Assembly: GCA_049429585.1 (NCBI GenBank)
Contig: JBMTBF010000001.1
Span: forward strand, 1-31,908
Source of the DNA: Terrimicrobiaceae bacterium
GTDB lineage: Bacteria > Verrucomicrobiota > Verrucomicrobiia > Chthoniobacterales > Terrimicrobiaceae
Length of the DNA stretch: 31,908 bases
Reading direction: 5' to 3'
Made by a program: the position numbers and the translations under genes. Of the stretch, positions 6,360-26,736 are shown in pieces; position 1 is the stretch's first letter, and each line of letters begins with the position of its first letter. The notes beneath the pieces are model-generated. The model did not search any database, had not been told where the DNA came from, and was given only the letters and a program-made list of their open reading frames with translations.

Positions 6360-6456
6360 CAGAATCCACCCCCCGATTCGCAAAGCAGGACGGGCTAAAC
6401 AAGATATTGCAAGGCGGGGAGATTTGATTCAAATTCCACCTTCCACAAATTCCGGC

Positions 6457-8019: not shown

Positions 8020-9252
8020 CTACTTTTTGATTCTCAAGCGTAGGAAGGTGGGGACATCCAAATCCTCGCCTTCCACGATGGTAGGCTCGCTTTTTTCGAA
8101 ACGGCCGCGGGCGATGGGTTCCAACGGGAGGAAGTCCTGCTTCACCTTTTGGGTTTTTGTCGATGGAACCGCGGGCTCCGCTGCGGATGGCATTTCCTCG
8201 CGTGGCGGCGCCAAACTTGGCACGGGGACACTGGCTTCCGGCTTGGCTTCAATCGGCAAGGCGGGCGGGAGGCAGGGCTTTTTTTCCTCAACCCCGGTGC
8301 GTCCGATAATCGTCACAATCAGCGGCGCGGAGTCATCCCCCGCCGTGCCGACTCCCAGACAGAGATTCGCGCCAGCGGCTGTGCTTTTGGAAATCCCGTT
8401 CATCACGGCGGACACCTCCGCGAATGTCAGCGATGAGGGCCCCGAGAGATGGACGAGAATTTTTCCAGCCTCTTGAAGGAGGCGCCCCCTGTCGAGCAAC
8501 GGACTGCGAAGAGCCTGCTCCAAAGCCTCATGGGCGCGGTTTGCACCCTCCGACTCGCCACACCCCAACAGGCACCCTCCCTTGGTCGCACGCAGGACCG
8601 TGAGGACGTCGTTGAGGGCAATCGGCACCGGTCCCGGGCTTCCGAGAATCCTGACGAGGCCGCCAATGGCTTGGAATAAAAGTCCATCACAAGCCGCGAA
8701 AGTCTCGGCGACATCGGCCCGGGGCTCGACGAGTTCGGCCATTCGGTCGTTCTCGAAATGCACCAGGGCATCAGCATGCTTCACCAGCTCGGAAAGCGAC
8801 TCACCGGCTTGTTGAGTGCGTCGGCGTCCCTCGAATTGGAAAGGCGATGTGACCACCGCCGAGACGAGAGCCCCCTTGTCCTTCGCCATTTTGGCAAGCA
8901 GGGGAACAATCGCGCTGGCCGTGCCTCCACCGAGCCCACCGCAAAGAATCACAACATCGGCTCCGGAGACGACCTGTTGAAGATCGCCAAGCGATTCCCT
9001 CGCGGCATCGATCGCTCGCTCCGGATCCCCCCCAGCTCCAAGCCCGTGGGTCGTCATCGGGCCGAGAACCAGTTTCTGCGCTGCGACCGAGGCGGCAAGC
9101 GATTGCTGGTCGGAGTTCAACGCCACGGTGTGAACTGACAAAGCGGCGCGCATGGTAAGCCGGTCCGTGATGTTCACGCCCGCGTTACCGATTCCAATAA
9201 GCCGGATCACAGACTCCTTGGCGGGTTCCTGATAGCGTGGATAGGGGCTCAT
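8020..9252 (-). CDS. ftsZ: Cell division protein FtsZ (divergent)
   Basis: GLGAGGDPE, PFQFEGRRR, END, SPLL and the C-terminal DLDVPTFLR peptide; last gene of the dcw cluster, after ftsA. Confidence 0.95.
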   Translation of the reverse strand: MSPYPRYQEPAKESVIRLIGIGNAGVNITDRLTMRAALSVHTVALNSDQQSLAASVAAQKLVLGPMTTHGLGAGGDPERAIDAARESLGDLQQVVSGADVVILCGGLGGGTASAIVPLLAKMAKDKGALVSAVVTSPFQFEGRRRTQQAGESLSELVKHADALVHFENDRMAELVEPRADVAETFAACDGLLFQAIGGLVRILGSPGPVPIALNDVLTVLRATKGGCLLGCGESEGANRAHEALEQALRSPLLDRGRLLQEAGKILVHLSGPSSLTFAEVSAVMNGISKSTAAGANLCLGVGTAGDDSAPLIVTIIGRTGVEEKKPCLPPALPIEAKPEASVPVPSLAPPREEMPSAAEPAVPSTKTQKVKQDFLPLEPIARGRFEKSEPTIVEGEDLDVPTFLRLRIKK

Positions 9253-10460
9253 AGGCCGAGATTGAAGTTGATGAGTTTTTTGAATTTTCCGATGAGCGTC
9301 TCCTCCGGCATGTCGGCATTGACCGCCTGCGCGTATCTCACAAGACCGATGCAGGTCGAGAGCTGGGGATTTTCAAAGGCCGAGGTCGGACCCGACACGG
9401 AATGCGCATGGGCAAGGCTCACAGGGGCCTCGAAAATCGTCTCCGCCACCTCTCGGACACCGCGAAGCATGCTGCAACCTCCCGTGAGGAGGATTCCCGC
9501 GCCAAGCAGGTGCTCGGGAACCACCTCGTGAATCCGCTTTTTGAGAATCGTGAAAAGTTCGGCCACCCGCGCGTTGATGATCATGTTCAGCATGTCGCGG
9601 TCGATTTCCTTGCCGGAAAATCCCGTATCGTTCTTGAGCGTTATTTTTTCTCCATGGGGATGTCCGCCGGGAAACGCGGATCCCTCTTCGATCTTCAGCT
9701 TCTCGGCGCGGGTGATCGGAATCCGGAGGCCGATGCAGAGGTCGTTCGTGATATGGTCGCCACCGATGGCGATAACGCCGCTGTGGCGCACGGCCCCGTC
9801 GTGATAGACGATGTAGTCGGTGACGCCGCCGCCGATATCGATCACCACGGCCCCGGCCTGTTTTTGGGCATCGCTTAAAACCACCTGCGCGGAGGCCACG
9901 GAATTCACCACGACATCATCGACCTCGATATCGAATTCCTTCACGCAGCGGATGGTGTTTTGAATCCTCGTCATCACGCCGTGGATGATGTGGTAATCGG
10001 CCTCAAGCTTCGCGCCCAGCATTCCAAGAGGATCGATGACCCCCTCCTGGCCATCCACATAGTAGCGCTGGATGATCGAGTGCAGGATCACATTCTCCTT
10101 GGGAATCGAGATTTCCTTGGCCTTGTATTCGACATCCCCGATTTCCTTTTCGGTGATCTCGCTGTCCTCCGGCATGGAGATCGAACTGCGGTTGTTGAAA
10201 CTTTGCAGATGGCTTCCGGTGACCGCGAGCCACACACTGTTGATCTCCTGATCGCTCCGCTCCTCGGCGTCTGCGAGGGCATCATGAACGCACTTGGAGG
10301 CGTTTTGAAAGTCCACGATTTCGCCTTTTCGGACACCCCGAGAGGGGCTCTCCCCCACCCCGAGCAGACGGATTTCACCATCGCGCCCGCACTCCGCCAC
10401 CACGGCGCAAACCTTGGTGGTTCCGATTTCCAGCCCGACATGGATTCTTTCTTTGGACAT
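9249..10460 (-). CDS. ftsA: Cell division protein FtsA
   Basis: GLEIGTTKV, GVRKGEIVD, DIGGGVTD, GGDHITNDL, AEKLKI, LTGG; between ftsQ and ftsZ. Confidence 0.96.
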   Translation of the reverse strand: MSKERIHVGLEIGTTKVCAVVAECGRDGEIRLLGVGESPSRGVRKGEIVDFQNASKCVHDALADAEERSDQEINSVWLAVTGSHLQSFNNRSSISMPEDSEITEKEIGDVEYKAKEISIPKENVILHSIIQRYYVDGQEGVIDPLGMLGAKLEADYHIIHGVMTRIQNTIRCVKEFDIEVDDVVVNSVASAQVVLSDAQKQAGAVVIDIGGGVTDYIVYHDGAVRHSGVIAIGGDHITNDLCIGLRIPITRAEKLKIEEGSAFPGGHPHGEKITLKNDTGFSGKEIDRDMLNMIINARVAELFTILKKRIHEVVPEHLLGAGILLTGGCSMLRGVREVAETIFEAPVSLAHAHSVSGPTSAFENPQLSTCIGLVRYAQAVNADMPEETLIGKFKKLINFNLGL

Positions 10461-11398
10461 CAGTTTTTTTGTTTGGATTTCGTTGCCGTGGCTCCCGCTT
10501 TCGCCGGCGGGGCGAGCGATGCCATAACAAATTTCACAGGAGTGTTTTTTGAGACCATGAGGTTCACGGAATCAAGTTCGCGTCCGGTGTCCCGGCAATG
10601 TGCGAGAAGCCTGCGCAGCTTCTCAACCTGGCCGCTGAAATCCGAACGACCGAATTTTACCCGGGCGTTCTGATCGGTGATCGCATCGATGCAGTAACCC
10701 TTCGAGATATTGAGTGAGCGCAAACAAACCAGTGAATCGGGTCTGGATGAGGCCTCATCGAGAAGCGCGATCGCCTTTTTTAAATCGTCATTGTGGAGAG
10801 GCTTTCCCTCGAGGATTTCGCTGGAATTCACCCCATAAATGACAGGCAGGCTGTGGAACTCCTGCGGAATAAGACGCGGACGCATGAGAAATCCGGACGC
10901 ATCCACCAGAAGCATGCTGGAAACATCGTAGGGCACCGCGGGATCCGTGGATGAGGAGACCCAAGCCACCGGTTCGCGGGCATCTAGAACGATGTGCATC
11001 CGATTCGGCAAAACCCGCTCGATCACGACATCGGCCACCATGGGAATAGCCCGAAGCCGACGGTCGGCCTCATTGATGTCCAGCTCGAAGATGTTTTTCC
11101 CCTCCACAATTCCTGTTTCCTCGCGCAGGTCCTCAGGCGTCAGGATACCATCCAACTCCAGTTCGAGCTCGGTGAGGTCGTAGGCGGAGTTCGAGAAAAA
11201 GAATTTGTCCAATGCGCGGCTGATTCCGAACCATGCGACTCCGCAAAGCAGCGACAGGCCGATCACAACGACAGAAAAGCTCATCAACAATTGCTGGCGT
11301 TTGCGCTTCGCTGTTGCTGCCCTCATTTTGACATTCAGCATCCGCTGTCCACGCGGCGTCCGGCGGCTTGCCGAAGTTTTGAGAATCCGCCCCTTCAT
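10460..11398 (-). CDS. ftsQ: Cell division protein FtsQ/DivIB
   Basis: Basic N-terminus, single TM, POTRA-like region (IPMVADVVIERVLPNRMHI...EPVAW, LVDASG); position between ddl and ftsA. Confidence 0.88.
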   Translation of the reverse strand: MKGRILKTSASRRTPRGQRMLNVKMRAATAKRKRQQLLMSFSVVVIGLSLLCGVAWFGISRALDKFFFSNSAYDLTELELELDGILTPEDLREETGIVEGKNIFELDINEADRRLRAIPMVADVVIERVLPNRMHIVLDAREPVAWVSSSTDPAVPYDVSSMLLVDASGFLMRPRLIPQEFHSLPVIYGVNSSEILEGKPLHNDDLKKAIALLDEASSRPDSLVCLRSLNISKGYCIDAITDQNARVKFGRSDFSGQVEKLRRLLAHCRDTGRELDSVNLMVSKNTPVKFVMASLAPPAKAGATATKSKQKN

Positions 11399-12321
11399 CG
11401 TGCGCTACCCTTGGCGGAAAGCGAAAGCCCCGCGATCTCCTCGCAAAGCGACGCGAAATCCAAGCCCGCCACGGCGGCGGCTTTAGGTAAAAGACTCGTT
11501 TCCGTCATGCCGGGGATGGTGTTGACCTCAAGAACGATCGGCTTGTTGGCCACATCGAGCAAAACATCCACGCGCGAGTAGACCTCCAATCCCAGCGAGC
11601 GATGTGCAGCGAGAGCCGCGGCTTGCACGGCCCGCGCGACATCCTCGTCGAGGCGCGCTGGGCAGAAGTAGTCCGAGTTGCCCTTTGTGTATTTGTTCTC
11701 GTAGCTGTAGAAATCAACCTTGGGAACGATTTCCACGACCGGCAGCGCCTCGTCTCCCACAATTCCCACTGTCAGTTCCCGGCCACGCACGAACTGTTCG
11801 ATCAGCACCTCGCTGTCGCGGGAGAAACAATCCTCCAGCGCTGGAGAGACTTCCTCCGGGGTTTGAACAATGTGAACCCCGACACTGGATCCCTCTCGGG
11901 GTGGCTTGGCGACGAAAGGAAGAGGGATCGACGGCTTGTCTCCAGCGCAAAGAATCTCCCATTTCGCATTCGGCACACCTGCCGCGTCGAATTTCTTCTT
12001 GCTGGCAATCTTGTCGAAGGCCAAGCGGCTTCCCGCCTCGCCTTCGCCGGTATAGGGAACCCCTAGACGGTCGAGGATGCCCTGTAATTCGCCGTCCTCG
12101 CCAAAAGTCCCGTGAATCATGTTGAACGCCAGGTCGGATTTTTCCGGGAGTTGAAAATCAGGACCGGTCACATCGATCTCCACGACCTCAGCCCCCACGG
12201 ATCGAAGCGCCTTGGCAACGGCCGCGCCGGAGTTCAATGAAACAGGCCGTTCCTTGCCGGGTCCGCCCATGAGAAGAGCAACCTTTTTGCCTTGCAGGAT
12301 TCCGGAATGATTTTTCTTCAT
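11395..12321 (-). CDS. ddl: D-alanine--D-alanine ligase
   Basis: HGTFGEDG, EGSSVGV, FYSYENKY (Tyr omega loop, D-Ala-D-Ala type), LEVNTIPGMTETSLLP. Confidence 0.97.
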   Translation of the reverse strand: MKKNHSGILQGKKVALLMGGPGKERPVSLNSGAAVAKALRSVGAEVVEIDVTGPDFQLPEKSDLAFNMIHGTFGEDGELQGILDRLGVPYTGEGEAGSRLAFDKIASKKKFDAAGVPNAKWEILCAGDKPSIPLPFVAKPPREGSSVGVHIVQTPEEVSPALEDCFSRDSEVLIEQFVRGRELTVGIVGDEALPVVEIVPKVDFYSYENKYTKGNSDYFCPARLDEDVARAVQAAALAAHRSLGLEVYSRVDVLLDVANKPIVLEVNTIPGMTETSLLPKAAAVAGLDFASLCEEIAGLSLSAKGSAR

Positions 12322-14606
12322 AAATCGACCCCCGTGATTTGGACCTCGGTTTGTAGCTGGATGCCTCGCTTCTCTTCCGCGACATGCTGGATTTCACGGA
12401 TAAGCGCGAGGATGTCCGCCGCGCTGGCACCGCCATCGTTGACGATGAAGTTGCCGTGGACCTCGGACACGCGGGCCGCACCAACCGAGCGGTTTTTCAG
12501 ACCGAGTTCCTCGATCAGTCGACCGGCCGGAATTTCAGCGGGGTTTTTGAAAATACATCCCGCGCTGGCGGCGACAGGTTGACTGGAGCGACGCTTGGAA
12601 ACCGAGGCCGCAATCGCGGAATCGATCTGGACCGCGCTCCCGGGCTGGCCGCGCAGAACGGCGGACAGCGCGAAGTTCTGCCTGAACATCGGAACATTCC
12701 GGTAGTGAACATCCATTTCGGCGGGGGTTTTTGTGAAAATATTCCCATCCTGATCGCAATAGCGCACACGCACGACCTGATCGAAGGTCTGGATTCCCAT
12801 GGCGCCGGCGTTCATGCGAAGCCCGCCTCCGAGGTTTCCTGGAATTCCCTCCATCCATTCGAAACCGGCGATTCCCGCGCCCCGCGCGAGAGCCGTGAGT
12901 TGTTTGAATTTCACGCCGACACCGGCGGTGATTTCCATTCCATGAATTTCGTGGTTTGCGAATTCGCCGCGTGCCAGATGTGCCACAACACCCGGAATCC
13001 CGCCATCGCGCACGAGAAGGTTGGAGCCTCGCCCCATGACCATCAGTGGCATGTTGTCGTCGAAGCAAAACCTCACGAGGTCGGCAAAACCCTCCTCGGT
13101 TTCAGGTTCCGCCCAAAATTGCGCCGGGCCACCCACACGCATCGTCGTGTGTTTGGCAAGGGGCTCGTAAAGTTTGATCCGGCCCGCCCCCATGACCTCC
13201 AAAAGGCGGTCGCGGGTTTTTAGATCGACGGCTAGACGGCTTCCGGCCTCGTGGATATTTCCAGCTCCAAGACTCAGAACGAGGTCGCCGTCCTCGAGAA
13301 TCGCACCAACCGCCTCATGGATTCTTGAAACCTTGGGAACAAACTTCACCGACGGATGGCCATTCGCCGCGACGGCATCGACAATCGTCTGTCCGGTGAC
13401 ACCGGGGATTGGCAATTCGCTTGCGGGATAAATGTCTGAAACAAAAACATGATCGGCTTTTTGGAACGCCATTCCAAAAAGGTCTTTCAAAGCCTGGGTC
13501 CGCGTGAACCGGTGTGGCTGGAACATGACGATTACGCGCTTGTTCGGCCCGGTACGGGCGGTGGCAATCGTGGCGGCGATTTCGGTTGGATGGTGGCCAT
13601 AGTCGTCGACCACGATCTGGCGCGGGCTGCCGTAGAGAATCTCGAACCGGCGACGCGCTCCACGAAAGGTTTCCAGTGCAGCGCTGATTTTTTCAAATGG
13701 AACACCGATCTCGGAGGCGAGGGCGATCGCGGCGAGGGCATTCAGGGCGTTGTGCGCGCCGGGAATGTTGAGAATCACCTCTCCAAGGATTTCGTTGTTC
13801 CGTTGAACCCGAAAGTAGGAGCAGAAATTTTTTGTCGCCAAATCCACAAGCCGATATCGCGCGGACGGTGAATGGCCATAGGAAATAGCCCGAGGATTTC
13901 CGGATACAACACGGGAGGCCCCGTTGTCATCGGCGCAGTAGAAAATGTTTCCCGAGGTTTGCGAAACCAGGCGTTCGTAAACGGCGTCGATCGCCTCGAG
14001 ATTCTCGTAGTAATCCAAATGCTCGGGCTCGATGTTGAGCACGATCGCATGGCGTGGATGGTAGTTCACCAGAGTCCCGTCGCTCTCATCCCCCTCGGCG
14101 ACAAAATAGATTCCTTCCGAATCCCAGCGGGCATTCGTACCGAGGATCGGAATTTCGGCGCCAACATAGTGAGAGGGCTTGAGCCCCCCGGCGCGGAGGA
14201 GGTGGGCAGCCATCGCCGAGGTGGTTGTCTTGCCGTGCATTCCGCAAACCACGATGCCCTGTTTCGAGGCCATTATTGCCGCCAAGGCGTCCGCGCGGCG
14301 AACCATTGGAATCCCCAGGCGCACCGCCTCGTCATAGGCGGGATTTCCCGTCCGGATGGCGGAGGAATAAACCACGAGATTCACACCCCGAACGCATTCG
14401 GCGGTGTGAGGACAAGAAAAGCGGAGACCCTTTTTGGAAAGCCGCTCTACCTCGACGGTGTCGACTTTGTCGGAACCGCCAACATCATGGCCCAGCCCGA
14501 GGAGAAGCGCGGCGATCCCGCTCATGCCGGAACCCGCCACACCGATGAGATGGATTTTTGCCGGAGCGGGGCCGGCCAGAAGGCCATGGAGTTTTTCAGC
14601 CTTCAT
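12318..14606 (-). CDS. murC-murB: Fused MurC (N-terminal) - MurB (C-terminal)
   Basis: 762 aa single ORF. MurC motifs GVAGSGMSG, GMHGKTTTS, EGDESDG, DDYGHHPTE, GAGNI; MurB motifs HTTMRVGGPA, GIPGNLGGGLRMNAGA, SAGCIFKNP, HGNFIVN. Confidence 0.97.
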   Translation of the reverse strand: MKAEKLHGLLAGPAPAKIHLIGVAGSGMSGIAALLLGLGHDVGGSDKVDTVEVERLSKKGLRFSCPHTAECVRGVNLVVYSSAIRTGNPAYDEAVRLGIPMVRRADALAAIMASKQGIVVCGMHGKTTTSAMAAHLLRAGGLKPSHYVGAEIPILGTNARWDSEGIYFVAEGDESDGTLVNYHPRHAIVLNIEPEHLDYYENLEAIDAVYERLVSQTSGNIFYCADDNGASRVVSGNPRAISYGHSPSARYRLVDLATKNFCSYFRVQRNNEILGEVILNIPGAHNALNALAAIALASEIGVPFEKISAALETFRGARRRFEILYGSPRQIVVDDYGHHPTEIAATIATARTGPNKRVIVMFQPHRFTRTQALKDLFGMAFQKADHVFVSDIYPASELPIPGVTGQTIVDAVAANGHPSVKFVPKVSRIHEAVGAILEDGDLVLSLGAGNIHEAGSRLAVDLKTRDRLLEVMGAGRIKLYEPLAKHTTMRVGGPAQFWAEPETEEGFADLVRFCFDDNMPLMVMGRGSNLLVRDGGIPGVVAHLARGEFANHEIHGMEITAGVGVKFKQLTALARGAGIAGFEWMEGIPGNLGGGLRMNAGAMGIQTFDQVVRVRYCDQDGNIFTKTPAEMDVHYRNVPMFRQNFALSAVLRGQPGSAVQIDSAIAASVSKRRSSQPVAASAGCIFKNPAEIPAGRLIEELGLKNRSVGAARVSEVHGNFIVNDGGASAADILALIREIQHVAEEKRGIQLQTEVQITGVDL

Positions 14607-15712
14607 TTCATGCCCTCCGCAACGGCGCGTTCCATGACATCCGCCACATTCGCCGCGGCCGACTCGGGCGAAAGCCCCCGTGCGGCCGACGACATCATCG
14701 CACGGCGCTGAGAATCGGAAAGCAGCTTGGAAACCACTGAGGCGAAAACCTCAGGCTGGATTTCCCTTTCGTTGATCAACTCGGCGGCACCCGAACGGAC
14801 GAAAATTTCGGCATTCGCCCTTTGGTGGTCATCGGTGGCGTAGGGATAGGGGATGAGTATGGAAGGCATGCCAAACATCGCCAGTTCGCTCAGGCTCGAG
14901 GCTCCTGCCCGGGATACGACGAGATCGGCGGCGGAATAAGCCTCCTCCATCCGGTGGTGGAACGGCGCGACATAATGCGGAATCTGGTCGCGCTGGTAGT
15001 TTGCCGCCGCAAGACGGTCGTCATTTTTCCCGGTGAGATGGATGATTTGAAGATTCCCGGCCTGCAGGAGGGGCGCCGATTTGAAGAGGAGTTGGTTGAT
15101 CCCGCTCGCACCCTGGCTGCCTCCGGTGACAAGCAGCGTGGTCCGGGAAGGATCGAGGTTGAAATGCTTCAACGCCTCCTCCCGAGGGAGTGGACGGCCG
15201 AGGTTTTTACGAACGGGAGTGCCAGTAACGACACAGGAGGAGCCGCTGAAAAACGGACGGCAATCCTCGAAGCCCAGCAGGACTCTCGTGGCAAATTTGG
15301 CGGCGAGCTTGTTGGCACGACCAGGAACGGCATTCGACTCGTGAATAAAGCAGGGAAGTCCAGCCAGCCTGGCGGCTAGAATCGGGGCCGTTGATGTGAA
15401 CCCCCCCATGCCCAGCACGACAGAGGGGCGGTTTTTTCGATAGACAGATCGGCAGTGGCGGTAACTTTCCCAAAACCTCCGGAGAAAACCGACAAAAGCA
15501 GGTGAAAGGACCATAGACGGCATGCCGACCGACGGGAGTTTTTCGGAACGGAACTCCGGGTGCGCCTGCAGAGCGGTGGCGTCGATTTCCTTCTCGGAAA
15601 CAAAAAGCAAGATTTCGTGGCCTCTGGTGTGAAGAGTCTCCGCAACAGCCAGACCGGGGAAGAGGTGCCCACCGGTTCCGCCGCAAGCGATGATGGCTTT
15701 GAATGGTTTCAT
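14603..15712 (-). CDS. murG: MurG GlcNAc transferase
   Basis: GGTGGHLFPG, HESNAVPG, GTPVR, GGSQGA, SRAGASSLSE, HQRANA. The start ATG at 15712 overlaps the ftsW stop (ATGA); the track's longer ORF start is spurious. Confidence 0.96.
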   Translation of the reverse strand: MKPFKAIIACGGTGGHLFPGLAVAETLHTRGHEILLFVSEKEIDATALQAHPEFRSEKLPSVGMPSMVLSPAFVGFLRRFWESYRHCRSVYRKNRPSVVLGMGGFTSTAPILAARLAGLPCFIHESNAVPGRANKLAAKFATRVLLGFEDCRPFFSGSSCVVTGTPVRKNLGRPLPREEALKHFNLDPSRTTLLVTGGSQGASGINQLLFKSAPLLQAGNLQIIHLTGKNDDRLAAANYQRDQIPHYVAPFHHRMEEAYSAADLVVSRAGASSLSELAMFGMPSILIPYPYATDDHQRANAEIFVRSGAAELINEREIQPEVFASVVSKLLSDSQRRAMMSSAARGLSPESAAANVADVMERAVAEGMK

Positions 15713-16851
15713 ACCCGGGGTTCGATGTGCGGCCGCAGAAGAACCGGCGCAAAGCGTGAGACCAGCGGTTGGCCCTGGCGGTGGATGTTGACGAGAAGAC
15801 CGATCAGGAACAGGCAAACCACAAGGTTTGAACCGCCGTAGCTGATAAAGGGAAGCGGCATACCTTTGTTTGGAAGAAGCGAGGTTGTGACGCCAAGATT
15901 TACGATGCTTTGGATCGTGATGAGCATCGTGCAACCGAATCCGAGCAACATACCGAAGCGGTCCCGGGCATTCGCAGAAATGAGGGCTCCGCACAGGAGG
16001 ATCACGAGAAAGGCGAAAACCGTGAGCGCGGTCGCCTTCAATCCCAATTCCTCCCCGATCATAGGAAAAATGAAGTCGGTGTGGGCATACGGGAGGTAGT
16101 GCATTTTCTGGCGACCCTCGCCGAGCCCGAGACCATCGAAACCGCCGGATCCGAAAGCGATGAGACCCTGCCATTGCTGGAGGCCTTCACAGAGTCGGTA
16201 TTTTTCGGGATCCATGAATGCAAGCAGGCGCTGAACACGCTCCGGAACGGCGAGCGCGACCAGAAAAATGGATGCAAATGCCAACGGAGTGAGAACGGCG
16301 AGCCAGCGGAGCGCGGCACCGGCCACGAACATGACTGCGAGGGCCGAGGCCCCGATGAGGGCGGTATTCCCGATATCGACCTCCAGCACGATCAGTAACA
16401 TCGGAATCGCGAGAATCGAGAGCGGAAGGGCGAGCCCGTTTTTAACTTTTTCAAAAGTGATATCCTCCCGGGAAAACCACCATGCGATGAAAAAGATCGA
16501 GCTGATCTTTGCAAATTCGCTGGGCTGGAGCGTACCGAAGCCGAGGTTGATCCACCGCGAAGAGCCGTTGATGCGCTGCCCGATCGGGGGAATGAAGCAA
16601 AGAACCAAAAGCACCGCACTGCCGACGAACAAGACCAACCACCACCTGCGCCAGAAATGATAGTCCACACTCGCCGCAAACAAGGCGGCCGCGACTCCCA
16701 CCACCAGCCAAAATCCCTGCCGCTTCACAAAAAGATACATGTCGCCATGGCTGTCCCGCGCATAGGCCCCCGTGCTGAAAAGCATCACGAGTCCCAGCGC
16801 GATCAATCCCGCAACGGCGAACATCAGGATGGTGATGACATTTTTTTGCAT
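15709..16851 (-). CDS. ftsW: FtsW (SEDS peptidoglycan polymerase)
   Basis: GSSRWI, QPSEFAK, GEGRQK...LPYAHTDFIF, PNKGMPLPFISYGGS. Confidence 0.96.
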   Translation of the reverse strand: MQKNVITILMFAVAGLIALGLVMLFSTGAYARDSHGDMYLFVKRQGFWLVVGVAAALFAASVDYHFWRRWWLVLFVGSAVLLVLCFIPPIGQRINGSSRWINLGFGTLQPSEFAKISSIFFIAWWFSREDITFEKVKNGLALPLSILAIPMLLIVLEVDIGNTALIGASALAVMFVAGAALRWLAVLTPLAFASIFLVALAVPERVQRLLAFMDPEKYRLCEGLQQWQGLIAFGSGGFDGLGLGEGRQKMHYLPYAHTDFIFPMIGEELGLKATALTVFAFLVILLCGALISANARDRFGMLLGFGCTMLITIQSIVNLGVTTSLLPNKGMPLPFISYGGSNLVVCLFLIGLLVNIHRQGQPLVSRFAPVLLRPHIEPRV

Positions 16852-16884
16852 GGCCGGGTGCTTGGATTTACTGGCAACTCGATC

Positions 16885-17679
16885 TCAGGGAATGGCGAGT
16901 TTTTGCCCGATCTTCAACTTCCGGGGATCGTCGATATTGTTGGCTTTCATCAACGCCTCCTGGGTGACTTTGAATTTCTTCGCGATCGAATACGGGTTGT
17001 CGCCTTTCGCCACGACATAGGACTGGCCTCCAGCGGAGGATTTATCTGTAGCCGGTGCGGCAGGCGCTGGAGCCGGCGGTGCCTCGGGAGCGGTTTTTGC
17101 AACCACGGGTTGAACGGGTGCGGGTTTGGCTACGATTGAGGGTGTGGCCTGTGATGCGGGAACCGGCGCGGAATTGGCCGAGGGTGTAGCCGATACTTTT
17201 CCGACGACAAGAACCTGACCCGTCCGGATGATCGAAGTGCTCGAGAGGTTGTTGGCTTTTTCCAGCGCCTCGATGCTTGTTTTGAATTTTGAGGCGATTT
17301 TTTTGAGCGTGTCGCCCGCCACCACCGTGTAGGTCTGCACAGTGGCCTCGACGGGTTTGACGACAGATGCGGCAGGCTTGGCTTCTGCCATGGGTTCGGG
17401 AGCTTTTTCCGCAATCACCGGAGCGGACTCCTTCTTTGCGGCAATCGGTTTCGCGGAGCTTTCCTTCAGTTTGTTGAATCCGTAGATGCCGGCTACCGCT
17501 ACGACATGAAGGACAAGAACAACGATGAACGCTTGGGAGAGCTTCATGCTTGGCTCAGCCTCGGATTCATATTCCTCGATTTCATCTCGGCTCGATGCCG
17601 CGCGGGCGTGGAGTCTTTTGCGTGGAACCAAACGGCGGTTTGGAAGCTGTGGAGCGGGTTTGTTTTTTTTGAACAGCAT
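16885..17679 (-). CDS. Membrane-anchored protein with two LysM domains
   Basis: N-terminal TM (AFIVVLVLHVVAVAGIYGF); LysM repeats YTVVAGDTLKKIA...GQVL and YVVAKGDNPYSIA...GQKL separated by Pro/Ala linkers. Confidence 0.92.
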   Translation of the reverse strand: MLFKKNKPAPQLPNRRLVPRKRLHARAASSRDEIEEYESEAEPSMKLSQAFIVVLVLHVVAVAGIYGFNKLKESSAKPIAAKKESAPVIAEKAPEPMAEAKPAASVVKPVEATVQTYTVVAGDTLKKIASKFKTSIEALEKANNLSSTSIIRTGQVLVVGKVSATPSANSAPVPASQATPSIVAKPAPVQPVVAKTAPEAPPAPAPAAPATDKSSAGGQSYVVAKGDNPYSIAKKFKVTQEALMKANNIDDPRKLKIGQKLAIP

Positions 17680-17687
17680 GGTGGTTT

Positions 17688-19016
17688 TCAGGGTGTGGTG
17701 GTTTGGAGTTGTTGGACGAATGTTTTGAACTGGTTTCCGCGCTCGCCGTAGTTGCGGAACATGTCGAACGAGGAGGTTCCTGGGGAAAAGAGGGCTGTGT
17801 CACCGGGTCGGGCGATCTTTCGAGCAAGTGCCACGGCGTCTTCGAGCGTGTCCACGCAGTGGCATTCGGTTTTTTCCCAAGACCGGGCAATGCGATGGCG
17901 CATTTCGCCGATCAAGACGGCGGCGCGGGCGCGGAGATGGATTTGTTCCGCAATGTCGTCGAACTCGAATCCCTTGTCCTTGCCACCGGCGATCAGAACA
18001 ACCGGCCCGTCGGCCGAGCGCAGCGCTTGCGCCATGGCATCTAGATTTGTGGCCTTCGAGTCGTTGACCCAGCGGACGCCATCGAGTTCCCGAACAAACT
18101 CGCAGCGGTGCGCCGGCGGTGCGTAGTCCGAGATTGCCGCTGCCAAGTTATCTATATCCATTCCCACGGCATACCCTATGCCGAGCGCGGCCATGATGTT
18201 TTCGGCGTTGTGCGGCCCGGGCAGACGGGTTGAGGATTGCTCAAGGATTTTCCTCGAGCGGAAATAAATCGCCGAGTTGCGAAACGTGAAGTCGGCCTTG
18301 TTTGTGGAGGCGCTGAAGGTGATCGTTTGGGCCTTAAGTGGGGGCAGGTCGTTGACGGCGTTCACCACCGCGAAATCCTCGGAGCTCTGATTCTCGAAAA
18401 TACGAAGTTTGGCTGCCCGATATTCTTCGATCCCGGGATAGCGGTCGAGGTGGTTTGCACTCAGATTCAGCCATGCCGCGACCTTGGGTCGGAAACTCTT
18501 GATCGTTTCGAGTTGGAAGGAACTCACCTCAAGGACCATCACATCCATCACGCGGCTTTGCCTGACGGCGGTCGCGAAGGGCAGTCCGATGTTGCCGCTC
18601 GCCATGGTGCGCAGTCCGCAACCTTGGAGGATTCGCGTCGTGAGTTCGGTGGTCGTTGTTTTTCCGTTCGTCCCTGTGATGGCCACGACCGGACAGGCGC
18701 ATTCCTCAAAGGCCAACTCGAGTTCGCCCACGACCGGAATGTTTTTCGCAACCACATTCCGGACAAGAGGAACACCAGGGTCGATTCCTGGACTGAGAAC
18801 CGCGAGATCGTAGAATTCGGAATCCCACTCGGCCTCAGTCCCCAGCAAAACCCGGACTCCCCGAGCGCGCAGAGCCTCGGCCTTTTCGCGGATGGCCGGA
18901 GAGTCGGAGGACTCGCAAACCGTCACGACGGCGCCATGGTCGATCAAAAGCTTGGCCGCAGCATCGCCGCTGTGGCCTAGCCCGAGAACAACCGTTTTTT
19001 TGCCGCCGTGGTTCAT
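17688..19016 (-). CDS. murD: MurD ligase
   Basis: LGLGHSG, SPGI, AITGTNGKTTT, EVSSFQL, NHLDRY, NDSKATN, SPGTSSFDMF. Confidence 0.97.
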   Translation of the reverse strand: MNHGGKKTVVLGLGHSGDAAAKLLIDHGAVVTVCESSDSPAIREKAEALRARGVRVLLGTEAEWDSEFYDLAVLSPGIDPGVPLVRNVVAKNIPVVGELELAFEECACPVVAITGTNGKTTTTELTTRILQGCGLRTMASGNIGLPFATAVRQSRVMDVMVLEVSSFQLETIKSFRPKVAAWLNLSANHLDRYPGIEEYRAAKLRIFENQSSEDFAVVNAVNDLPPLKAQTITFSASTNKADFTFRNSAIYFRSRKILEQSSTRLPGPHNAENIMAALGIGYAVGMDIDNLAAAISDYAPPAHRCEFVRELDGVRWVNDSKATNLDAMAQALRSADGPVVLIAGGKDKGFEFDDIAEQIHLRARAAVLIGEMRHRIARSWEKTECHCVDTLEDAVALARKIARPGDTALFSPGTSSFDMFRNYGERGNQFKTFVQQLQTTTP

Positions 19017-19017
19017 G

Positions 19018-20148
19018 TCAACGCAGTTTCAAAGTGGCCAAGCCGAGCAGCGCGAAGAACACGGAGAGAATCCAGAAGCGGACGATGACCGTGTTTTCCT
19101 TCCAACCGCTCAGCTCGAAGTGGTGATGGATGGGAGACATCTTGAAAATCCGGCGTCCGGTGGTTTTGAAACTCGCCACTTGGAGAATCACCGACATCGC
19201 CTCGATGACAAAAACGCCACCGACAATCACAAGAAGAAGTTCCTGTTTGCAGCAAATCGCGACGGCTCCGAGCATCCCGCCGATGGCGAGCGAACCTGTG
19301 TCTCCCATGAACACCCGGGCAGGGTAGGCATTCCACCAGAGGAACCCGAGGCATGCCCCCAGAAGGGCGATGCAGAGCACTGTGAGCTCGCCGGAGAATT
19401 GAACAAACGGCACCTGCAAGTAGGTCGCGGCTTTGAAGTTGCCCGCCACATAGGCGAGGACGGCGTAGGTCGCGGCCACCGTCGCGGTGCAACCCGTCGC
19501 GAGACCGTCCAAGCCGTCGGTAAGATTCACCGCGTTTGAAGTGCCGACAATCACCAGCAGGTAGAAAATAAAAGTGAACGCCCCCATTCCCAACACGAGA
19601 GGATCTTTGAGGAACGGGATGTAGAGCTGCTGCGCGGTGGCGGAGAGTTGCGGATTGAGCAGGAAAAAGAGGGTGAAGACGCCCGCGAGCGCACATTGCA
19701 GGGCAAATTTCAGCCGACTGCTGATGCCATCGGAGTTTTTCTTCGAGACCTTGAGCCAATCGTCGTAGAGCCCAATGCCACCTAGGAAAAGCGTGCTGAA
19801 AAGAACGAGCCAAACAAACGGGTTCTCCGGCTTAGCCCAGAGCAGGGTGGAAATCACAATCGAGCCAATGAGCAGGATGCCGCCCATCGTCGGAGTTCCT
19901 TTTTTCGCACCGTGGAGTTCGTAGAGTTTGTGGACCTCGGCTGCGGTGCGGATGGGCTGGCCGAACTTGAGCGAGATCAATTTCCGGATGACGAAATTTC
20001 CAAAGAGCAGCGACAGAAGAAAAGCCGTCACCCCGGCACAGATGGCCCGGAAAGTAATGTAGGAAAAAACATTCAGCGCCTTGAAAAGGTCGCTGGTCCA
20101 ACCGCGGGCCACAGCCCAGTCGCCGAGTTCAGAGAGGTAGTAGAGCAT
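19018..20148 (-). CDS. mraY: MraY translocase
   Basis: KKGTPTMGG, DDWLK, SNAVNLTDGLDGL, FMGDTGS, PIHHHFE. Confidence 0.98.
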   Translation of the reverse strand: MLYYLSELGDWAVARGWTSDLFKALNVFSYITFRAICAGVTAFLLSLLFGNFVIRKLISLKFGQPIRTAAEVHKLYELHGAKKGTPTMGGILLIGSIVISTLLWAKPENPFVWLVLFSTLFLGGIGLYDDWLKVSKKNSDGISSRLKFALQCALAGVFTLFFLLNPQLSATAQQLYIPFLKDPLVLGMGAFTFIFYLLVIVGTSNAVNLTDGLDGLATGCTATVAATYAVLAYVAGNFKAATYLQVPFVQFSGELTVLCIALLGACLGFLWWNAYPARVFMGDTGSLAIGGMLGAVAICCKQELLLVIVGGVFVIEAMSVILQVASFKTTGRRIFKMSPIHHHFELSGWKENTVIVRFWILSVFFALLGLATLKLR

Positions 20149-21515
20149 TAGTTCCGGAGATGTTCGAAGAGGGTTTCCATGCGGGCGGAGCGACTGCCCT
20201 TCACAAGGACGAGATCCCCGGGTCGCGCGAGTTGTGAAAGCATTCTGGCGGCGGCGGCCGTGTCCTCGACCTCGTGAATGCGTCCGAGTCCCGATTCCCG
20301 CGCTGCGGCGGAGATCGAGGAGGCATCCGCTCCGACAGTGAAAAGAATATCGGCCCAGCGCGCGGCGGCTTGCCCCACGCGGCGGTAGCCTTCACCGGCG
20401 TGCTCGCCGAGTTCCCCCATTTTTCCCAGAACGGCGATGCGGCGCCCGCTTCCTGGAACGAGGCGAAGGGTGCTCAATGCCGCCTCCATGGATTCGGGAT
20501 TCGCATTGTAGCTGTCGTCGAGATAGGTGACGCCAGCGATGGTTTTTTGTTCTAGCCGACCCCCGACGAGGCGCGCCTTGGCAAGTCCCTTGACCCCCTT
20601 TTCGAGGGGAACCCCCATCTCCAATCCAGCGGCCAGCGCGAGAAGTGCGTTTTGAACCATGTGGGTTCCGTGAACCCCGATGGAGGCGGAAATTTTCGCG
20701 CCATCGCGAATGACGGTGAAATTCGTTCCTTCAGACGTGGATTGAATATCCGTCGCCACGAGGTCGCCTTTGGCCACTCCTGTCCGAACCACCTTGGCGC
20801 AACAGCGCGCGGCGATTGCATCGGTTTTGTCATCCTCGGCAGGAAGAACAACGGCTCCACCGGCGGGCACGGCCTCGGCAAGCATGCCTTTTTCCAACGC
20901 GATCGCGTCGCGCGTTTTCATGTATTCGATGTGCGCGGTGCCGATATTGGTAATGATCGCACAAGCAGGCTGGATCATTTTAGCCAGGGGAGCGATTTCA
21001 CCTGGATGGTTCATTCCGACTTCCCAGACGGCTGCTTCGGCTTCAGAACCCGCCGAGAGGATCGAAAGCGGAACGCCGATGTGGTTGTTCAGATTTCCCT
21101 CGGTTTTGACGACGCGGTATTTCGAGCCAAGAACGGCGGCAGCGAATTCCTTGGTGCTCGTTTTGCCACTGCTGCCGGTGATTCCAAGCACGCGGAGCTT
21201 CAAGCGGGAACGCCATGCGGCGGCCAGGCTGGCGAGGGCTTCCAGGCTGTCTTTTGCCAGAATTACCGGGTGGGTGGCGGCGAGTTTTTCTGCGATCGTC
21301 GGCGAGTCGAGCAAAGCGGCGGCCGCGCCAAGTTCAAATGCATGCGAAGCAAACTCGTTTCCGTCGAATGTTTCACCGCGAATGCCGATGTAGAGGTCGC
21401 CGGGCTTGATGGTTCGGGTGTCCTTGTTGAAACGCGAAACCATGGCGCTTGTATCCGGCCCTATCAGAGCGGCTCCAGCCATGGCCGCAATTTCCCGCAG
21501 CGGTAAAGGGTCCAT
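20148..21515 (-). CDS. murF: MurF ligase
   Basis: ITGSSGKTSTKE, NLNNHIGVP, EVGMNHPGEI, DDSYNANPES, VKGSR. Confidence 0.97.
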   Translation of the reverse strand: MDPLPLREIAAMAGAALIGPDTSAMVSRFNKDTRTIKPGDLYIGIRGETFDGNEFASHAFELGAAAALLDSPTIAEKLAATHPVILAKDSLEALASLAAAWRSRLKLRVLGITGSSGKTSTKEFAAAVLGSKYRVVKTEGNLNNHIGVPLSILSAGSEAEAAVWEVGMNHPGEIAPLAKMIQPACAIITNIGTAHIEYMKTRDAIALEKGMLAEAVPAGGAVVLPAEDDKTDAIAARCCAKVVRTGVAKGDLVATDIQSTSEGTNFTVIRDGAKISASIGVHGTHMVQNALLALAAGLEMGVPLEKGVKGLAKARLVGGRLEQKTIAGVTYLDDSYNANPESMEAALSTLRLVPGSGRRIAVLGKMGELGEHAGEGYRRVGQAAARWADILFTVGADASSISAAARESGLGRIHEVEDTAAAARMLSQLARPGDLVLVKGSRSARMETLFEHLRN

Positions 21516-22987: not shown

Positions 22988-22991
22988 GGGA

Positions 22992-24755: not shown

Positions 24756-25132
24756 TGGGCGGACTCCGAGTTGAAGGCTGTGCGCATCACACCGTCCTCC
24801 GAGGCCGTGGAGGGAGGGGTGAGCCGGGCGATTTTATCGCCGCTGATCGCCACCACATTGATGAATTTCTGGGCGACGCGCTTTTGAAGCATCGGGCGGG
24901 AGGAGAGTTCCGTCACAGTGGCGATGAGCACCTCGTTGCGGGAATGGACATCGCGGATTTGGCGTTCGGTCTTTCGAATTTGATCGGCGAGAACGAACTG
25001 CTGGTTTTTCAAATAAACATAAGCGAGTCCCAACGCGCCAATGAGAAAGGTCAGTGCGACGAACTTCGCAACCTTCGCAGCTTGGACGGGATTCGAGGTT
25101 TGAAGAGATTGGGGTTGGATTGTCAGGTTCAT
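24752..25132 (-). CDS. ftsL: Probable FtsL
   Basis: 126 aa, one TM followed by a coiled-coil; located between rsmH and ftsI with an ATGA overlap. The assignment is positional and structural. Confidence 0.7.
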   Translation of the reverse strand: MNLTIQPQSLQTSNPVQAAKVAKFVALTFLIGALGLAYVYLKNQQFVLADQIRKTERQIRDVHSRNEVLIATVTELSSRPMLQKRVAQKFINVVAISGDKIARLTPPSTASEDGVMRTAFNSESAQ

Positions 25133-25142
25133 AGGAGGCCTT

Positions 25143-26120: not shown

Positions 26121-26255
26121 GGTTTTTCAATCCCCGGAATCCCGCCCGCCCGCCGCCGACCCGCTTTTCCGGGCCACGCATCACGGCGTGTGGCGTCAGG
26201 ATTTTCAGCCCTCCCCCGTGCTCATGGTTATTGGTTCAAGGTTCATAAAAATTCG

Positions 26256-26708
26256 TTACAGGCCGATCTCGACCGCCACGCGCTGGTAGATGCCGGTGTT
26301 CGCGCTGACATCCGCCTCGTGGCGCTGTTTCGACCAAATTTCAAAGCGCCGACCCGCCCCCACGATCACGATCTCGGCTTTGAGGTCCGCTGCAGCCGCA
26401 TGGTTTTCGGGAATAAGGATGCGCCCCTGCTTGTCGGTGGTGACCTTGTGCGCCTCGCTGAAAAACCTCCGGATCGCCTGGCGTTTCTCTTGGGCTGTCG
26501 CCCCGGAAGCCATGATGCGTTGCTCCGTCGAGTGGAATTCCTCCGGTGGCATCACCATCAGGTAGCCATCCTGCGGGTGTGGAATCACATAAAAATCCGA
26601 CTCCGATCCCTTGATCCAAGCCGACGGAACGGCCGCGCGGTTTTTCGCGTCGATCGCCCGATCGTAAGTGCCCGAGTAGAAGGGCACATCTGGAGGTTCG
26701 ATTGGCAT
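26256..26708 (-). CDS. mraZ: Transcriptional regulator MraZ
   Basis: Two SpoVT/AbrB repeats with DAKNR and DKQGRILIP; the ATG at 26708 is preferred over the track's 26732. Confidence 0.95.
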   Translation of the reverse strand: MPIEPPDVPFYSGTYDRAIDAKNRAAVPSAWIKGSESDFYVIPHPQDGYLMVMPPEEFHSTEQRIMASGATAQEKRQAIRRFFSEAHKVTTDKQGRILIPENHAAAADLKAEIVIVGAGRRFEIWSKQRHEADVSANTGIYQRVAVEIGL

Positions 26709-26736
26709 CAGGTCTTTGGGATCATTAAACAATATT

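What the first reader, a model, noticed from the sequence alone, without database searches (positions are those of the whole stretch)
8020..9252. FtsZ with degenerate GTP-binding and T7 catalytic loops but an intact FtsA-binding tail
Seen, aligned by eye to E. coli FtsZ: the T1 loop GVGGGGGN is GIGNAGVN; the tubulin signature GGGTGTG is GGGTASA (8911-8931); the T7 loop PGLMNVDFAD is PGPVPIALND (8608-8637), i.e. N207 to P and D209 to A with D212 kept. NSD, GLGAG, E138, R142, N165, D186 and the DLDVPTFLR tail are retained. Established: N207/D209/D212 activate GTP hydrolysis in the neighbouring subunit and drive treadmilling; PVC relatives (Chlamydiae, Planctomycetes) have lost FtsZ. Inference: a slow or GTPase-poor scaffold FtsZ inside an otherwise complete divisome, possibly an intermediate on the way to FtsZ-independent division.
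Basis: partly seen in the sequence, partly recalled or inferred. Interest (0 to 1): 0.72.

Follow-up and report, generated by a model that had tools for sequence, protein, structure and literature searches.

The report
FtsZ with remodelled GTPase-activating loop
This is the only cell-division FtsZ gene of a freshwater verrucomicrobial bacterium, and it lacks two of the three loop residues that model bacteria need to split GTP. The loss is ancient, shared by whole orders and kept by selection, so it is a stable variant and not a gene on its way out.

Summary
ORF 8020-9252(-) is a 410-aa FtsZ with T1 GIGNAGVN, T4 GGGTASA and T7 PGPVPIALND, which is N207P and D209A with D212 kept (E. coli numbering). 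It has an intact DLDVPTFLR tail.

- **Context:** it is the last gene of a complete mraZ-to-ftsZ dcw cluster. It is the only tubulin-fold gene found in this 72%-complete MAG, and each of 37 other genus genomes with a hit has exactly one.
- **Not errors:** three independent public assemblies carry the same key residues.
- **Not specific to this genome:** all 41 FtsZs of its sub-clade (Terrimicrobiaceae-like Chthoniobacterales) lack N207 and D209. They keep D212, a new T1 Asn and every nucleotide-side contact checked (D45, G69, G105-107, E138, R142, F182).
- **Wider spread:** the other 79 sampled D209-less (Gly) FtsZs, labelled Chthoniobacterales or Verrucomicrobiales, include Verrucomicrobium spinosum, whose ftsZ is experimentally essential.
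- **Selection:** dN/dS is 0.05-0.08.

My reading is a functional, FtsA-tethered division FtsZ whose trans-acting catalytic loop was remodelled long ago. It probably hydrolyses GTP slowly or by a different route, but this is untested. "Intermediate towards FtsZ-less division" is not supported for this lineage.

This scan has reported similar verrucomicrobial FtsZs on other DNA. I class it as a new variant of a known kind, of moderate interest.

The parts
8020..9252 (-). ftsZ CDS, 410 aa. Sole tubulin-fold gene found in the genome.
   Evidence: AF2 model core pLDDT 80-93; best Foldseek match is B. subtilis FtsZ 2vxy, TM 0.86.
9172..9195 (-). T1 loop GIGNAGVN (residues 20-27). The new Asn23 sits at E. 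coli G20.
   Evidence: Asn at this position in 41/41 members of the sub-clade.
8911..8931 (-). T4 / tubulin signature GGGTASA (residues 108-114): G109A, T110S, G111A.
   Evidence: Identical in contigs of three independent runs. G105-G107 are 41/41 and T108 is 40/41 in the sub-clade.
8608..8637 (-). T7 synergy loop PGPVPIALND (residues 206-215): L205P, N207P, D209A, A211N, D212 kept.
   Evidence: In the sub-clade P205 is 40/41, N207 0/41, D209 0/41 and D212 41/41.
8566..8628 (-). Cluster of seven C/G differences between the window and three independent assemblies (V209L, V216L, L229F; the rest synonymous).
8074..8289 (-). Disordered Pro/Ala-rich C-terminal linker (residues 322-393).
   Evidence: pLDDT below 50 in the AF2 model.
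8080..8109 (-). Conserved pre-tail block RGRFEKSEPT (residues 382-391).
   Evidence: G383, F385, P390 and T391 are invariant in alignment A1. The block is seen in other orders and classes sampled, with a degenerate form (ARFKGTDKT) in V. spinosum.
8038..8064 (-). C-terminal peptide DLDVPTFLR (residues 397-405), the presumed FtsA-docking tail.
   Evidence: Predicted helix 400-406.
9249..10460 (-). ftsA. Its stop overlaps the ftsZ start by 4 bp.
   Evidence: Pfam FtsA 124.9 bits and SHS2_FTSA 84.5 bits; coordinates.
10460..11398 (-). ftsQ
   Evidence: POTRA_1 and FtsQ_DivIB_C.
11395..26732 (-). Rest of the dcw cluster: ddl, murC-murB fusion, murG, ftsW, LysM protein, murD, mraY, murF, murE, ftsI, ftsL-like ORF, rsmH/mraW and an mraZ-like ORF.
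   Evidence: Pfam hits; ORFs. The ftsL and mraZ assignments rest on position and size only.

Best explanation
This is the single, functional division FtsZ of a freshwater Chthoniobacterales (Terrimicrobiaceae-like) bacterium.

**Shown.**
- It sits in the ancestral ftsQ-ftsA-ftsZ slot.
- It has the FtsZ fold and keeps its C-terminal docking peptide.
- It keeps every nucleotide-side ('bottom') contact of the composite active site: T2 D45/Q47, T3 G69/G71, T4 GGGT, E138, R142, N165 and F182.
- It is under strong purifying selection.
- The trans-acting 'top' half of the active site, the T7 loop, has been rebuilt. N207 and D209 are gone, and their positions now vary among small residues. A Pro at 205 and D212 are fixed, and a new Asn is fixed in T1.

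**Inferred.**
- The protein still binds GTP and polymerises head-to-tail into FtsA-tethered filaments that organise the FtsW/FtsI septal synthases encoded beside it.
- The canonical swinging-Asp mechanism for positioning the catalytic water is absent. GTP turnover, and hence subunit exchange or treadmilling, is therefore probably slower or differently catalysed than in E. coli, B. subtilis or S. aureus.
- The remodelling happened in steps. D209G, a basic residue at 207 and A211D arose in a lineage ancestral to the sampled Verrucomicrobiales and Chthoniobacterales. L205P, loss of D211 and T1 G20N followed in the Terrimicrobiaceae-like sub-clade. T4 G111A and G109A came later.
- It is a stable, selected state, not a stage of decay.
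For: - **Identity, fold and context:**
- **Single copy:** one hit in the own genome. Each of 37 other genus genomes with a hit has exactly one, including a 100%-complete genome.
- **Purifying selection:** dN/dS 0.045-0.08 for genus pairs with dS 0.18-1.1.
- **Residue conservation in the 41-sequence sub-clade:** N20, D45, G69, G105-107, E138, R142, F182 and D212 are all 41/41, and P205 is 40/41. Position 207 is P/A/G/Q and position 209 is A/S/G/T.
- **Stepwise distribution on the FtsZ tree:**
- **One T7 acid is nearly always kept:** of 180 verrucomicrobial FtsZs only 3 lack both D209 and D/E212.
- **V. spinosum:** its FtsZ was identified by both published primers and has N207R and D209G with D212 kept. 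That gene is essential by TraDIS in a binary-fission organism (PMC12283558).
- **Mechanism of the lost residues:** the S. aureus equivalents are D210, which swings to place the catalytic water, N208, which contacts K+ and the Mg2+ shell, and D213, which bridges to R143 (PMC8936486).
- **Low-GTPase FtsZ can still divide cells:** chromosomal E. coli D212A/G mutants are viable, and D212G has about 14% of wild-type GTPase and about 7% of wild-type treadmilling speed (bioRxiv 10.1101/077610).
- **Key codons confirmed** in three independent public assemblies.
Against: - No biochemical data exist for this or, as far as my four full-text searches showed, any verrucomicrobial FtsZ. 'Slow GTPase' is inference from model organisms.
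- In S. aureus FtsZ the single mutants N208L and D210N abolish assembly altogether (PMC8936486). The lineage must therefore carry compensating changes that I could not identify. The same compensation might also restore normal hydrolysis.
- The own genome is only 72% complete. Absence of a second ftsZ rests mainly on relatives.
- The test for co-variation between T1 G20 and T7 N207 was underpowered, with a median sign-test p of 0.25.
Confidence: 0.62

Rival explanations
1. Fully compensated enzyme. The remodelled site hydrolyses GTP at an ordinary rate. D212 and R142, plus lineage-specific residues such as the invariant new T1 Asn acting in cis, do the job of N207 and D209. In the sister clades a Lys/Arg/His at 207 and an Asp at 211 would do it. 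Dynamics and treadmilling would then be normal, and the sequence change would be neutral re-wiring.
For: - The new residues are fixed and not drifting: N20 41/41, P205 40/41 and D212 41/41.
- In the sister clades D211 is 77/79 and position 207 is mostly R/H/K.
- Almost every FtsZ sampled keeps at least one T7 acid, 177 of 180.
- Selection is strong.
- The V. spinosum gene is essential (PMC12283558).
Against: - In this sub-clade positions 207 and 209 vary freely among P/A/G/Q and A/S/G/T. No new side chain has taken their place within T7.
- No basic residue at 207 and no Asp at 211 exists here.
- The equivalent single substitutions are strongly deleterious in S. aureus FtsZ (PMC8936486).
Confidence: 0.28
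2. This is a GTPase-dead static scaffold that marks a lineage in transit to FtsZ-independent division, as in Chlamydiae and Planctomycetes.
For: - N207 and D209 are lost and T4 is partly degenerate.
- MinC and ZapA were not found in five genus genomes.
- Elsewhere in the phylum FtsZ is eroded much further. One family has a 248-aa half-FtsZ in the ftsA-ftsZ slot. Another gives only N-terminal-domain matches.
Against: - The state is shared by all 41 sub-clade members, and D209 is Gly in the 79 other D209-less FtsZs sampled.
- dN/dS is 0.05-0.08.
- The GTP-pocket residues checked and D212 are invariant.
- The same T7 type occurs in an essential FtsZ of a binary-fission bacterium (PMC12283558).
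- The full FtsA/Q/W/I set is retained beside it.
Confidence: 0.08
3. Artefact or non-division gene: assembly or read errors, a pseudogene, or a divergent FtsZ-like paralogue unrelated to cytokinesis.
For: - The score is below the NCBIfam equivalog cut-off.
- The window carries an odd cluster of seven C/G differences at 8566-8628 relative to three public assemblies.
Against: - The key codons are identical in three independent runs.
- The frame is intact in about 40 genomes.
- The gene has strict dcw synteny with a 4-bp ftsA overlap.
- It is the sole copy.
- Selection is strong.
- 112 of the 121 phylum genomes searched have no FtsZ match above the same cut-off, so a sub-threshold score is the norm in this phylum.
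Confidence: 0.02

Closest known systems
Verrucomicrobium spinosum FtsZ (Yee et al. 2007, PMC1845146; essential by TraDIS, Henriques et al. 2025, PMC12283558)
   Same: - Same phylum and class.
- The tubulin signature is GGGTGSG in V. spinosum; the window shares only the Ser at the sixth position (GGGTASA).
- T7 lacks N207 and D209 (PGIVRMGIADLL) and keeps D212.
- The tail is EGEDLDVPTW, preceded by a related conserved block.
- The murC-murB fusion is also present in the cluster.
   Different: - V. spinosum keeps a normal T1 (GVGGGGLN), Leu-type 205 and a basic residue at 207.
- It carries a long essential C-terminal extension (673 aa in total).
- The window protein has T1 GNAG, a Pro-rich T7 with no basic or second acidic residue, and T4 GGGTASA.
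Canonical bacterial FtsZ (E. coli, B. subtilis 2vxy/2vam, S. aureus; TIGR00065)
   Same: - Same fold (TM 0.86) and domain order.
- Same nucleotide-side contacts.
- Same linker-plus-C-terminal-peptide architecture and ftsA-ftsZ synteny.
   Different: - Below the equivalog cut-off (234.6 against 295.2 bits).
- T7 has NxDxxD replaced by PxAxxD.
- T1 carries G20N and G23V.
- The last Gly of the tubulin signature is Ala.
E. coli T7-loop and GTPase mutants (D212A/G, G105S) and S. aureus N208L, D210N, D213N
   Same: They change the same active-site positions. The E. coli D212A/G mutants show that a cell can divide with an FtsZ of low GTPase activity and little treadmilling (bioRxiv 10.1101/077610).
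   Different: - They are single laboratory substitutions with fitness or assembly defects (PMC8936486).
- Here the change is natural, multi-site, fixed for a long time and presumably compensated.
Nitrosopumilus maritimus FtsZ (PMC3684127)
   Same: A natural FtsZ homologue that lacks a conserved T7 loop.
   Different: - That protein also lacks the GTP-binding signature.
- It does not polymerise.
- It coexists with a Cdv division system.
- The window protein keeps the GTP pocket and the FtsA tail, and it is the only candidate division scaffold.

Membership tests
FtsZ (orthologue, by descent) | Tubulin/FtsZ GTPase domain followed by the FtsZ C-terminal domain | tested here: met
   PF00091 115.5 bits and PF12327 51.8 bits, both above their cut-offs.
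FtsZ (orthologue, by descent) | FtsZ three-dimensional fold | tested here: met
   AF2 core pLDDT 80-93. Foldseek finds 2vxy with E 6e-33 and TM 0.86, and the top 50 listed matches are all FtsZ structures.
FtsZ (orthologue, by descent) | Position at the end of the dcw cluster directly after ftsA, as the sole copy | tested here: met
FtsZ (orthologue, by descent) | Disordered linker plus conserved C-terminal peptide (D/E-x-L-D-[IV]-P-x-F-L-R) | tested here: met
   DLDVPTFLR at residues 397-405. The linker at 322-393 has pLDDT below 50.
Canonical FtsZ GTPase (NCBIfam equivalog TIGR00065) | Score above the curated equivalog cut-off | tested here: not met
   234.6 bits against a cut-off of 295.2. 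Only 9 of the 121 phylum genomes searched have a match above the cut-off, while all 13 control genomes with a match are above it.
Canonical FtsZ GTPase | Tubulin signature GGGT[GA][ST]G (pattern recalled from PROSITE, not checked here) | tested here: not met
   GGGTASA. The last Gly is Ala; GGGT is intact.
Canonical FtsZ GTPase | T7 synergy loop N-x-D-x-x-D with both catalytic aspartates | tested here: not met
   P-x-A-x-x-D. Only D212 is kept.
Canonical FtsZ GTPase | Nucleotide-side contacts (T2 N43/D45/Q47, T3 GxG, E138, R142, N165, F182) | tested here: met
   All are present in the query. D45, G69, E138, R142 and F182 are 41/41 in the sub-clade; N43 and N165 are 40/41, G71 39/41 and Q47 35/41.
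Canonical FtsZ GTPase | GTP-dependent polymerisation, GTP hydrolysis, treadmilling | not testable with these tools
   Needs purified protein or live-cell imaging.

The most novel reading that the evidence does not exclude
Free-living, peptidoglycan-walled bacteria of the Terrimicrobiaceae-like clade may build their Z-ring from an FtsZ that binds GTP but lacks the trans-acting catalytic Asp/Asn pair. In a milder form this would hold for all sampled Chthoniobacterales and Verrucomicrobiales. Such a ring would either barely treadmill or use a different catalytic arrangement: a cis Asn in T1 here, and a fixed Lys/Arg in place of the K+ ion in the sister clades. That would be a natural, long-lived exception to the rule that GTPase-driven treadmilling of FtsZ is needed to guide septal wall synthesis.
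Probability: 0.3. Interest if true: 0.75.

Novelty: new variant of a known kind. Interest (0 to 1): 0.5.

Why it matters
FtsZ's GTPase, formed between neighbouring subunits by the T7 loop, drives the treadmilling that distributes septal cell-wall synthesis in the model bacteria. It is treated as a near-universal feature of the protein. Here entire orders of ordinary, wall-bearing, binary-fission bacteria have dispensed with two of the three T7 residues, while keeping the GTP pocket, the FtsA tail and strong selection. One of these organisms has a proven-essential ftsZ.

That gives a natural, evolutionarily tested answer to how much of the catalytic loop FtsZ really needs. The graded series, from canonical through D209G plus D211 to a Pro-rich loop with D212 only, can be expressed and assayed directly. 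It also corrects the tempting reading that such degeneracy signals imminent loss of FtsZ in the PVC group.

Tried and rejected
- **Second canonical ftsZ:** searched with PF00091 and TIGR00065 in the own genome and PF00091 in 40 genus genomes. None was found.
- **Read or assembly error:** rejected for the key residues by laying contigs of three independent runs. Those contigs did reveal a local cluster of C/G differences that changes V209, V216 and L229.
- **Pseudogene or relaxed selection:** rejected by dN/dS.
- **Co-evolution of T1 G20 loss with T7 N207 loss, and of D209 with D212:** tested by independent contrasts on the FtsZ tree. There were too few independent events (median p 0.25 to 1), so only raw cross-tabulations are reported.
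- **Pilhofer et al. 2007 and 2008:** these analysed verrucomicrobial FtsZ residues, but the library does not hold them. I cannot say whether they already noted the T7 changes.
- **Literature searches:** four full-text searches turned up no biochemical assay of a verrucomicrobial FtsZ.
- **Other regulators:** MinC_C and ZapA were not found in five genus genomes. No further FtsZ regulators were searched.
- **Naming of groups:** Only V. spinosum could be identified, through the published primers. Other group names rest on NCBI record titles.
- **Dimer model:** a model of the active site could not be made, because the structure tool predicts monomers only.
Full report
**What is there.** The ORF at 8020-9252 on the minus strand encodes a 410-aa protein. 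It has a Tubulin/FtsZ GTPase domain (115.5 bits) and an FtsZ C-terminal domain (51.8 bits). Against the NCBIfam ftsZ equivalog it scores 234.6 bits, below the 295.2-bit cut-off. phmmer against PDB sequences finds FtsZ of B. subtilis, S. aureus, M. tuberculosis, E. coli and others at E 1e-54 to 1e-44. An AlphaFold2 model built on 16 relatives has a confident core (pLDDT 80-93) and a disordered linker at residues 322-393. It superposes on B. subtilis FtsZ 2vxy with TM 0.86.

I checked it with the B. subtilis alignment and a profile alignment with E. coli FtsZ taken from MG1655.
- T1 is GIGNAGVN (G20N, G21A, G23V).
- T4 is GGGTASA (G109A, T110S, G111A) at 8911-8931.
- T7 is PGPVPIALND at 8608-8637, that is L205P, N207P, D209A, A211N with D212 kept.
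- N43, D45, Q47, the T3 GLGAG, E138, R142, N165, F182 and the tail DLDVPTFLR are retained.
- One numbering point: the retained Asp in helix H7 aligns with E. coli N186 (B. subtilis and S. aureus D187), not with an E. coli Asp.

**Not sequencing error.** Near-identical sequence is present in at least 12 public runs from about 10 studies, mostly freshwater and estuarine. Contigs from three independent DNA runs agree with the window at T1, T4 and the T7 residues P210, A212 and D215. All three differ from the window at seven clustered C/G sites (8566-8628). Those differences change V209L, V216L and L229F, so the loop reads PGPLPIALNDLL. The window's L229 departs from a Phe kept in at least 90% of relatives. 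This small tract may therefore be a MAG consensus flaw or a strain allele. It does not affect the finding. Two short contigs in a metatranscriptome run lie on the gene, which is weak evidence of transcription.

**Context.** The gene is the last of a complete dcw cluster on the minus strand. The order is an mraZ-like ORF, rsmH/mraW, an ftsL-like ORF, ftsI, murE, murF, mraY, murD, a LysM protein, ftsW, murG, a murC-murB fusion, ddl, ftsQ, ftsA and ftsZ. The ftsA stop overlaps the ftsZ start by 4 bp.

The genome is a 1.73-Mb, 304-contig MAG that is 72% complete. It holds one tubulin-fold gene. Of 40 other genomes of the genus, 37 have exactly one hit and none has two. One of these genomes is 100% complete. 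MinC and ZapA were not found in five genus genomes. Record titles of the nearest public contigs name the group as Spartobacteria, Terrimicrobiaceae or Chthoniobacterales, phylum Verrucomicrobiota, from lakes.

**The substitutions are lineage-wide and stepwise.** I collected 180 verrucomicrobial FtsZs, aligned them to E. coli numbering and ordered them on a tree built without the T7 columns. This is a single FastTree topology, and I inspected no branch supports for the nodes that matter.
- Several families from other classes of the phylum keep the canonical loop, for example PGLVNVDFADVR.
- Four families of the same class keep N207 and D209 but have replaced D212 by Thr, Ser, Ala or Gly.
- A set of 79 sampled FtsZs outside the window's sub-clade have Gly at 209. 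I defined this set by that residue, so the 79/79 is by construction. By record title or kinship they fall in Chthoniobacterales and Verrucomicrobiales. They usually have Arg, His or Lys at 207, Asp at 211 (77/79) and Asp or Glu at 212 (77/79), as in PGLIRIGFDDLL.
- The window belongs to a 41-sequence sub-clade. It includes the genus, allied families and two 0.9-Mb closed genomes.
  - T1 Asn20 is 41/41, Pro205 is 40/41 and D212 is 41/41.
  - N207 and D209 are 0/41. Position 207 varies among P/A/G/Q, position 209 among A/S/G/T, and D211 is lost.
  - The nucleotide-side residues D45, G69, G105-G107, E138, R142 and F182 are all 41/41.
- T4 G111A arose within the genus. G109A is seen in 12 of the 41.
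- Over all 180 proteins, only 3 lack both D209 and an acid at 212.
- Only 9 of the 121 phylum genomes searched have an FtsZ match above the NCBIfam cut-off. All 13 control genomes with a match are above it.

**Selection.** Nei-Gojobori dN/dS for genus pairs with unsaturated dS (0.18-1.1) is 0.045-0.08. The gene is under strong purifying selection.

**Link to an experimentally studied organism.** The two internal ftsZ sequencing primers published for Verrucomicrobium spinosum (PMC1845146) both match one 8.22-Mb genome, inside its FtsZ ORF. That FtsZ is 673 aa long. It has T1 GVGGGGLN, T4 GGGTGSG and T7 PGIVRMGIADLL, so N207R and D209G with D212 kept.
- Yee et al. called it canonical. They noted eight changes at otherwise invariant positions and did not discuss T7.
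- Henriques et al. 2025 showed by TraDIS that ftsZ and nearly all of the dcw cluster are essential in this binary-fission bacterium. They called its FtsZ one of the most divergent.
- Loss of N207 and D209 is therefore compatible with an essential, working division FtsZ.

**What the lost residues do in model FtsZs.** High-resolution S. aureus filament structures give the roles (PMC8936486).
- D210 (E. coli D209) swings to place the catalytic water.
- N208 (N207) contacts the K+ ion and the Mg2+ shell.
- D213 (D212) and R143 (R142) frame the site.
- N208L, D210N and D213N each abolish assembly in solution.

In E. coli, chromosomal D212A and D212G mutants are viable. D212G has about 14% of wild-type GTPase and about 7% of wild-type treadmilling speed, and it makes misshapen septa (bioRxiv 10.1101/077610). 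A natural precedent for a truly degenerate FtsZ is Nitrosopumilus maritimus. Its FtsZ lacks both the GTP signature and T7 and does not polymerise, and that organism divides with Cdv proteins (PMC3684127).

**Interpretation.** It is shown that this is the sole, selected, syntenic FtsZ. Its GTP pocket and FtsA tail are intact, and its trans-acting catalytic loop was rebuilt in an ancestor and then frozen. It is inferred that the protein binds GTP and polymerises. Positions 207 and 209 now drift among small residues, so the canonical swinging-Asp mechanism is gone, and hydrolysis is probably slower or catalysed differently. Candidates for the new arrangement are D212 with R142, and the invariant new T1 Asn acting in cis. 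In the sister clades, a fixed Lys or Arg at 207 might replace the K+ ion. These candidates are hypotheses.

The rival view, that compensation restores normal rates, cannot be excluded without biochemistry. I give it about 0.28. The state is old, conserved and found in an essential FtsZ.

At the level of the phylum there are much more eroded forms.
- One family gives only N-terminal-domain matches.
- Another has, in the slot after an ftsA-like gene, a 248-aa half-FtsZ without the C-terminal domain but with an NLDVPTCIRLK tail.

A gradient of FtsZ reduction therefore does exist in Verrucomicrobiota.

**Novelty.** The general divergence of verrucomicrobial FtsZ is published (PMC1845146, PMC12283558). 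The two papers most likely to have tabulated functional residues, Pilhofer et al. 2007 and 2008, were not available to me. I found no paper that states the loss of the T7 catalytic residues or tests its consequence. This scan has already reported comparable FtsZs in other verrucomicrobial genomes. I class the finding as a new variant of a known kind, with moderate interest. The value lies in the clade-wide pattern and the ready experimental series, not in this one gene.

Noticed in passing
window 8566-8628 (and 9156): The window differs from contigs of three independent public runs at seven clustered C<->G sites, which change V209L, V216L and L229F, and at one further site (T33A). The window's L229 departs from a Phe conserved in at least 90% of relatives. 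This is a possible MAG consensus flaw, a strain allele or a recombination tract.
   Followed up: partly
L186:1486-2232:+ (family f45, another class of the same phylum), with an ftsA-like ORF at L186:124-1449:+: Four 94-95%-complete genomes have no TIGR00065 hit. After a weak FtsA-like gene sits a 248-aa 'half FtsZ'. It has only a weak N-terminal tubulin domain (25 bits, T4 = LGGNVCG) and no C-terminal/T7 domain, but it ends in NLDVPTCIRLK. A separate 366-aa tubulin-like ORF with GGGTGNG lies elsewhere (L188:724-1821:-).
   Followed up: partly
L147, L148, L183 (family f22, same class): These FtsZ homologues match only over the N-terminal domain (E about 1e-17). Their T1 is degenerate (GLGKMG, GIGRAG) and so is T4 (GGTTGSE, GGAMGSA), and the T7 region could not be aligned or is unrecognisable. 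FtsZ erosion here goes further than in the window's clade.
   Followed up: no
window 8080-8109; also the FtsZ tails in L120, L125, L114, L130 and V. spinosum (L185 plus L184): A conserved block, [RK]G[RH]F[ED]K[ST]EPT, lies about five residues upstream of the DLDVPTFLR tail. It is present in other orders and classes sampled, with a degenerate form (ARFKGTDKT) in V. spinosum. It may be an extended docking motif for FtsA or another partner.
   Followed up: partly
window 12318-14606 (-): MurC-MurB fusion protein (762 aa) in the dcw cluster. The same fusion is reported as essential in V. spinosum (PMC12283558).
   Followed up: partly
window 16885-17679 (-): A 264-aa protein with two LysM domains is inserted between murD and ftsW in the dcw cluster.
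   Followed up: no
window 6424-8010 (+): A convergent neighbour of ftsZ. It is a 528-aa protein with an N-terminal HTH_17 domain (Pfam) and a long low-complexity region.
   Followed up: partly
L078: A contig labelled 'Nitrospirota bacterium MAG261' carries an FtsZ with the same T1, T4 and T7 motifs as Candidatus Udaeobacter contigs. It is probably mis-binned or mislabelled.
   Followed up: no
genus genomes G000, G008, G162, G168, G170: MinC_C (PF03775) and ZapA (PF05164) were not found in the window's genome or in four near-complete genomes of the genus.
   Followed up: partly
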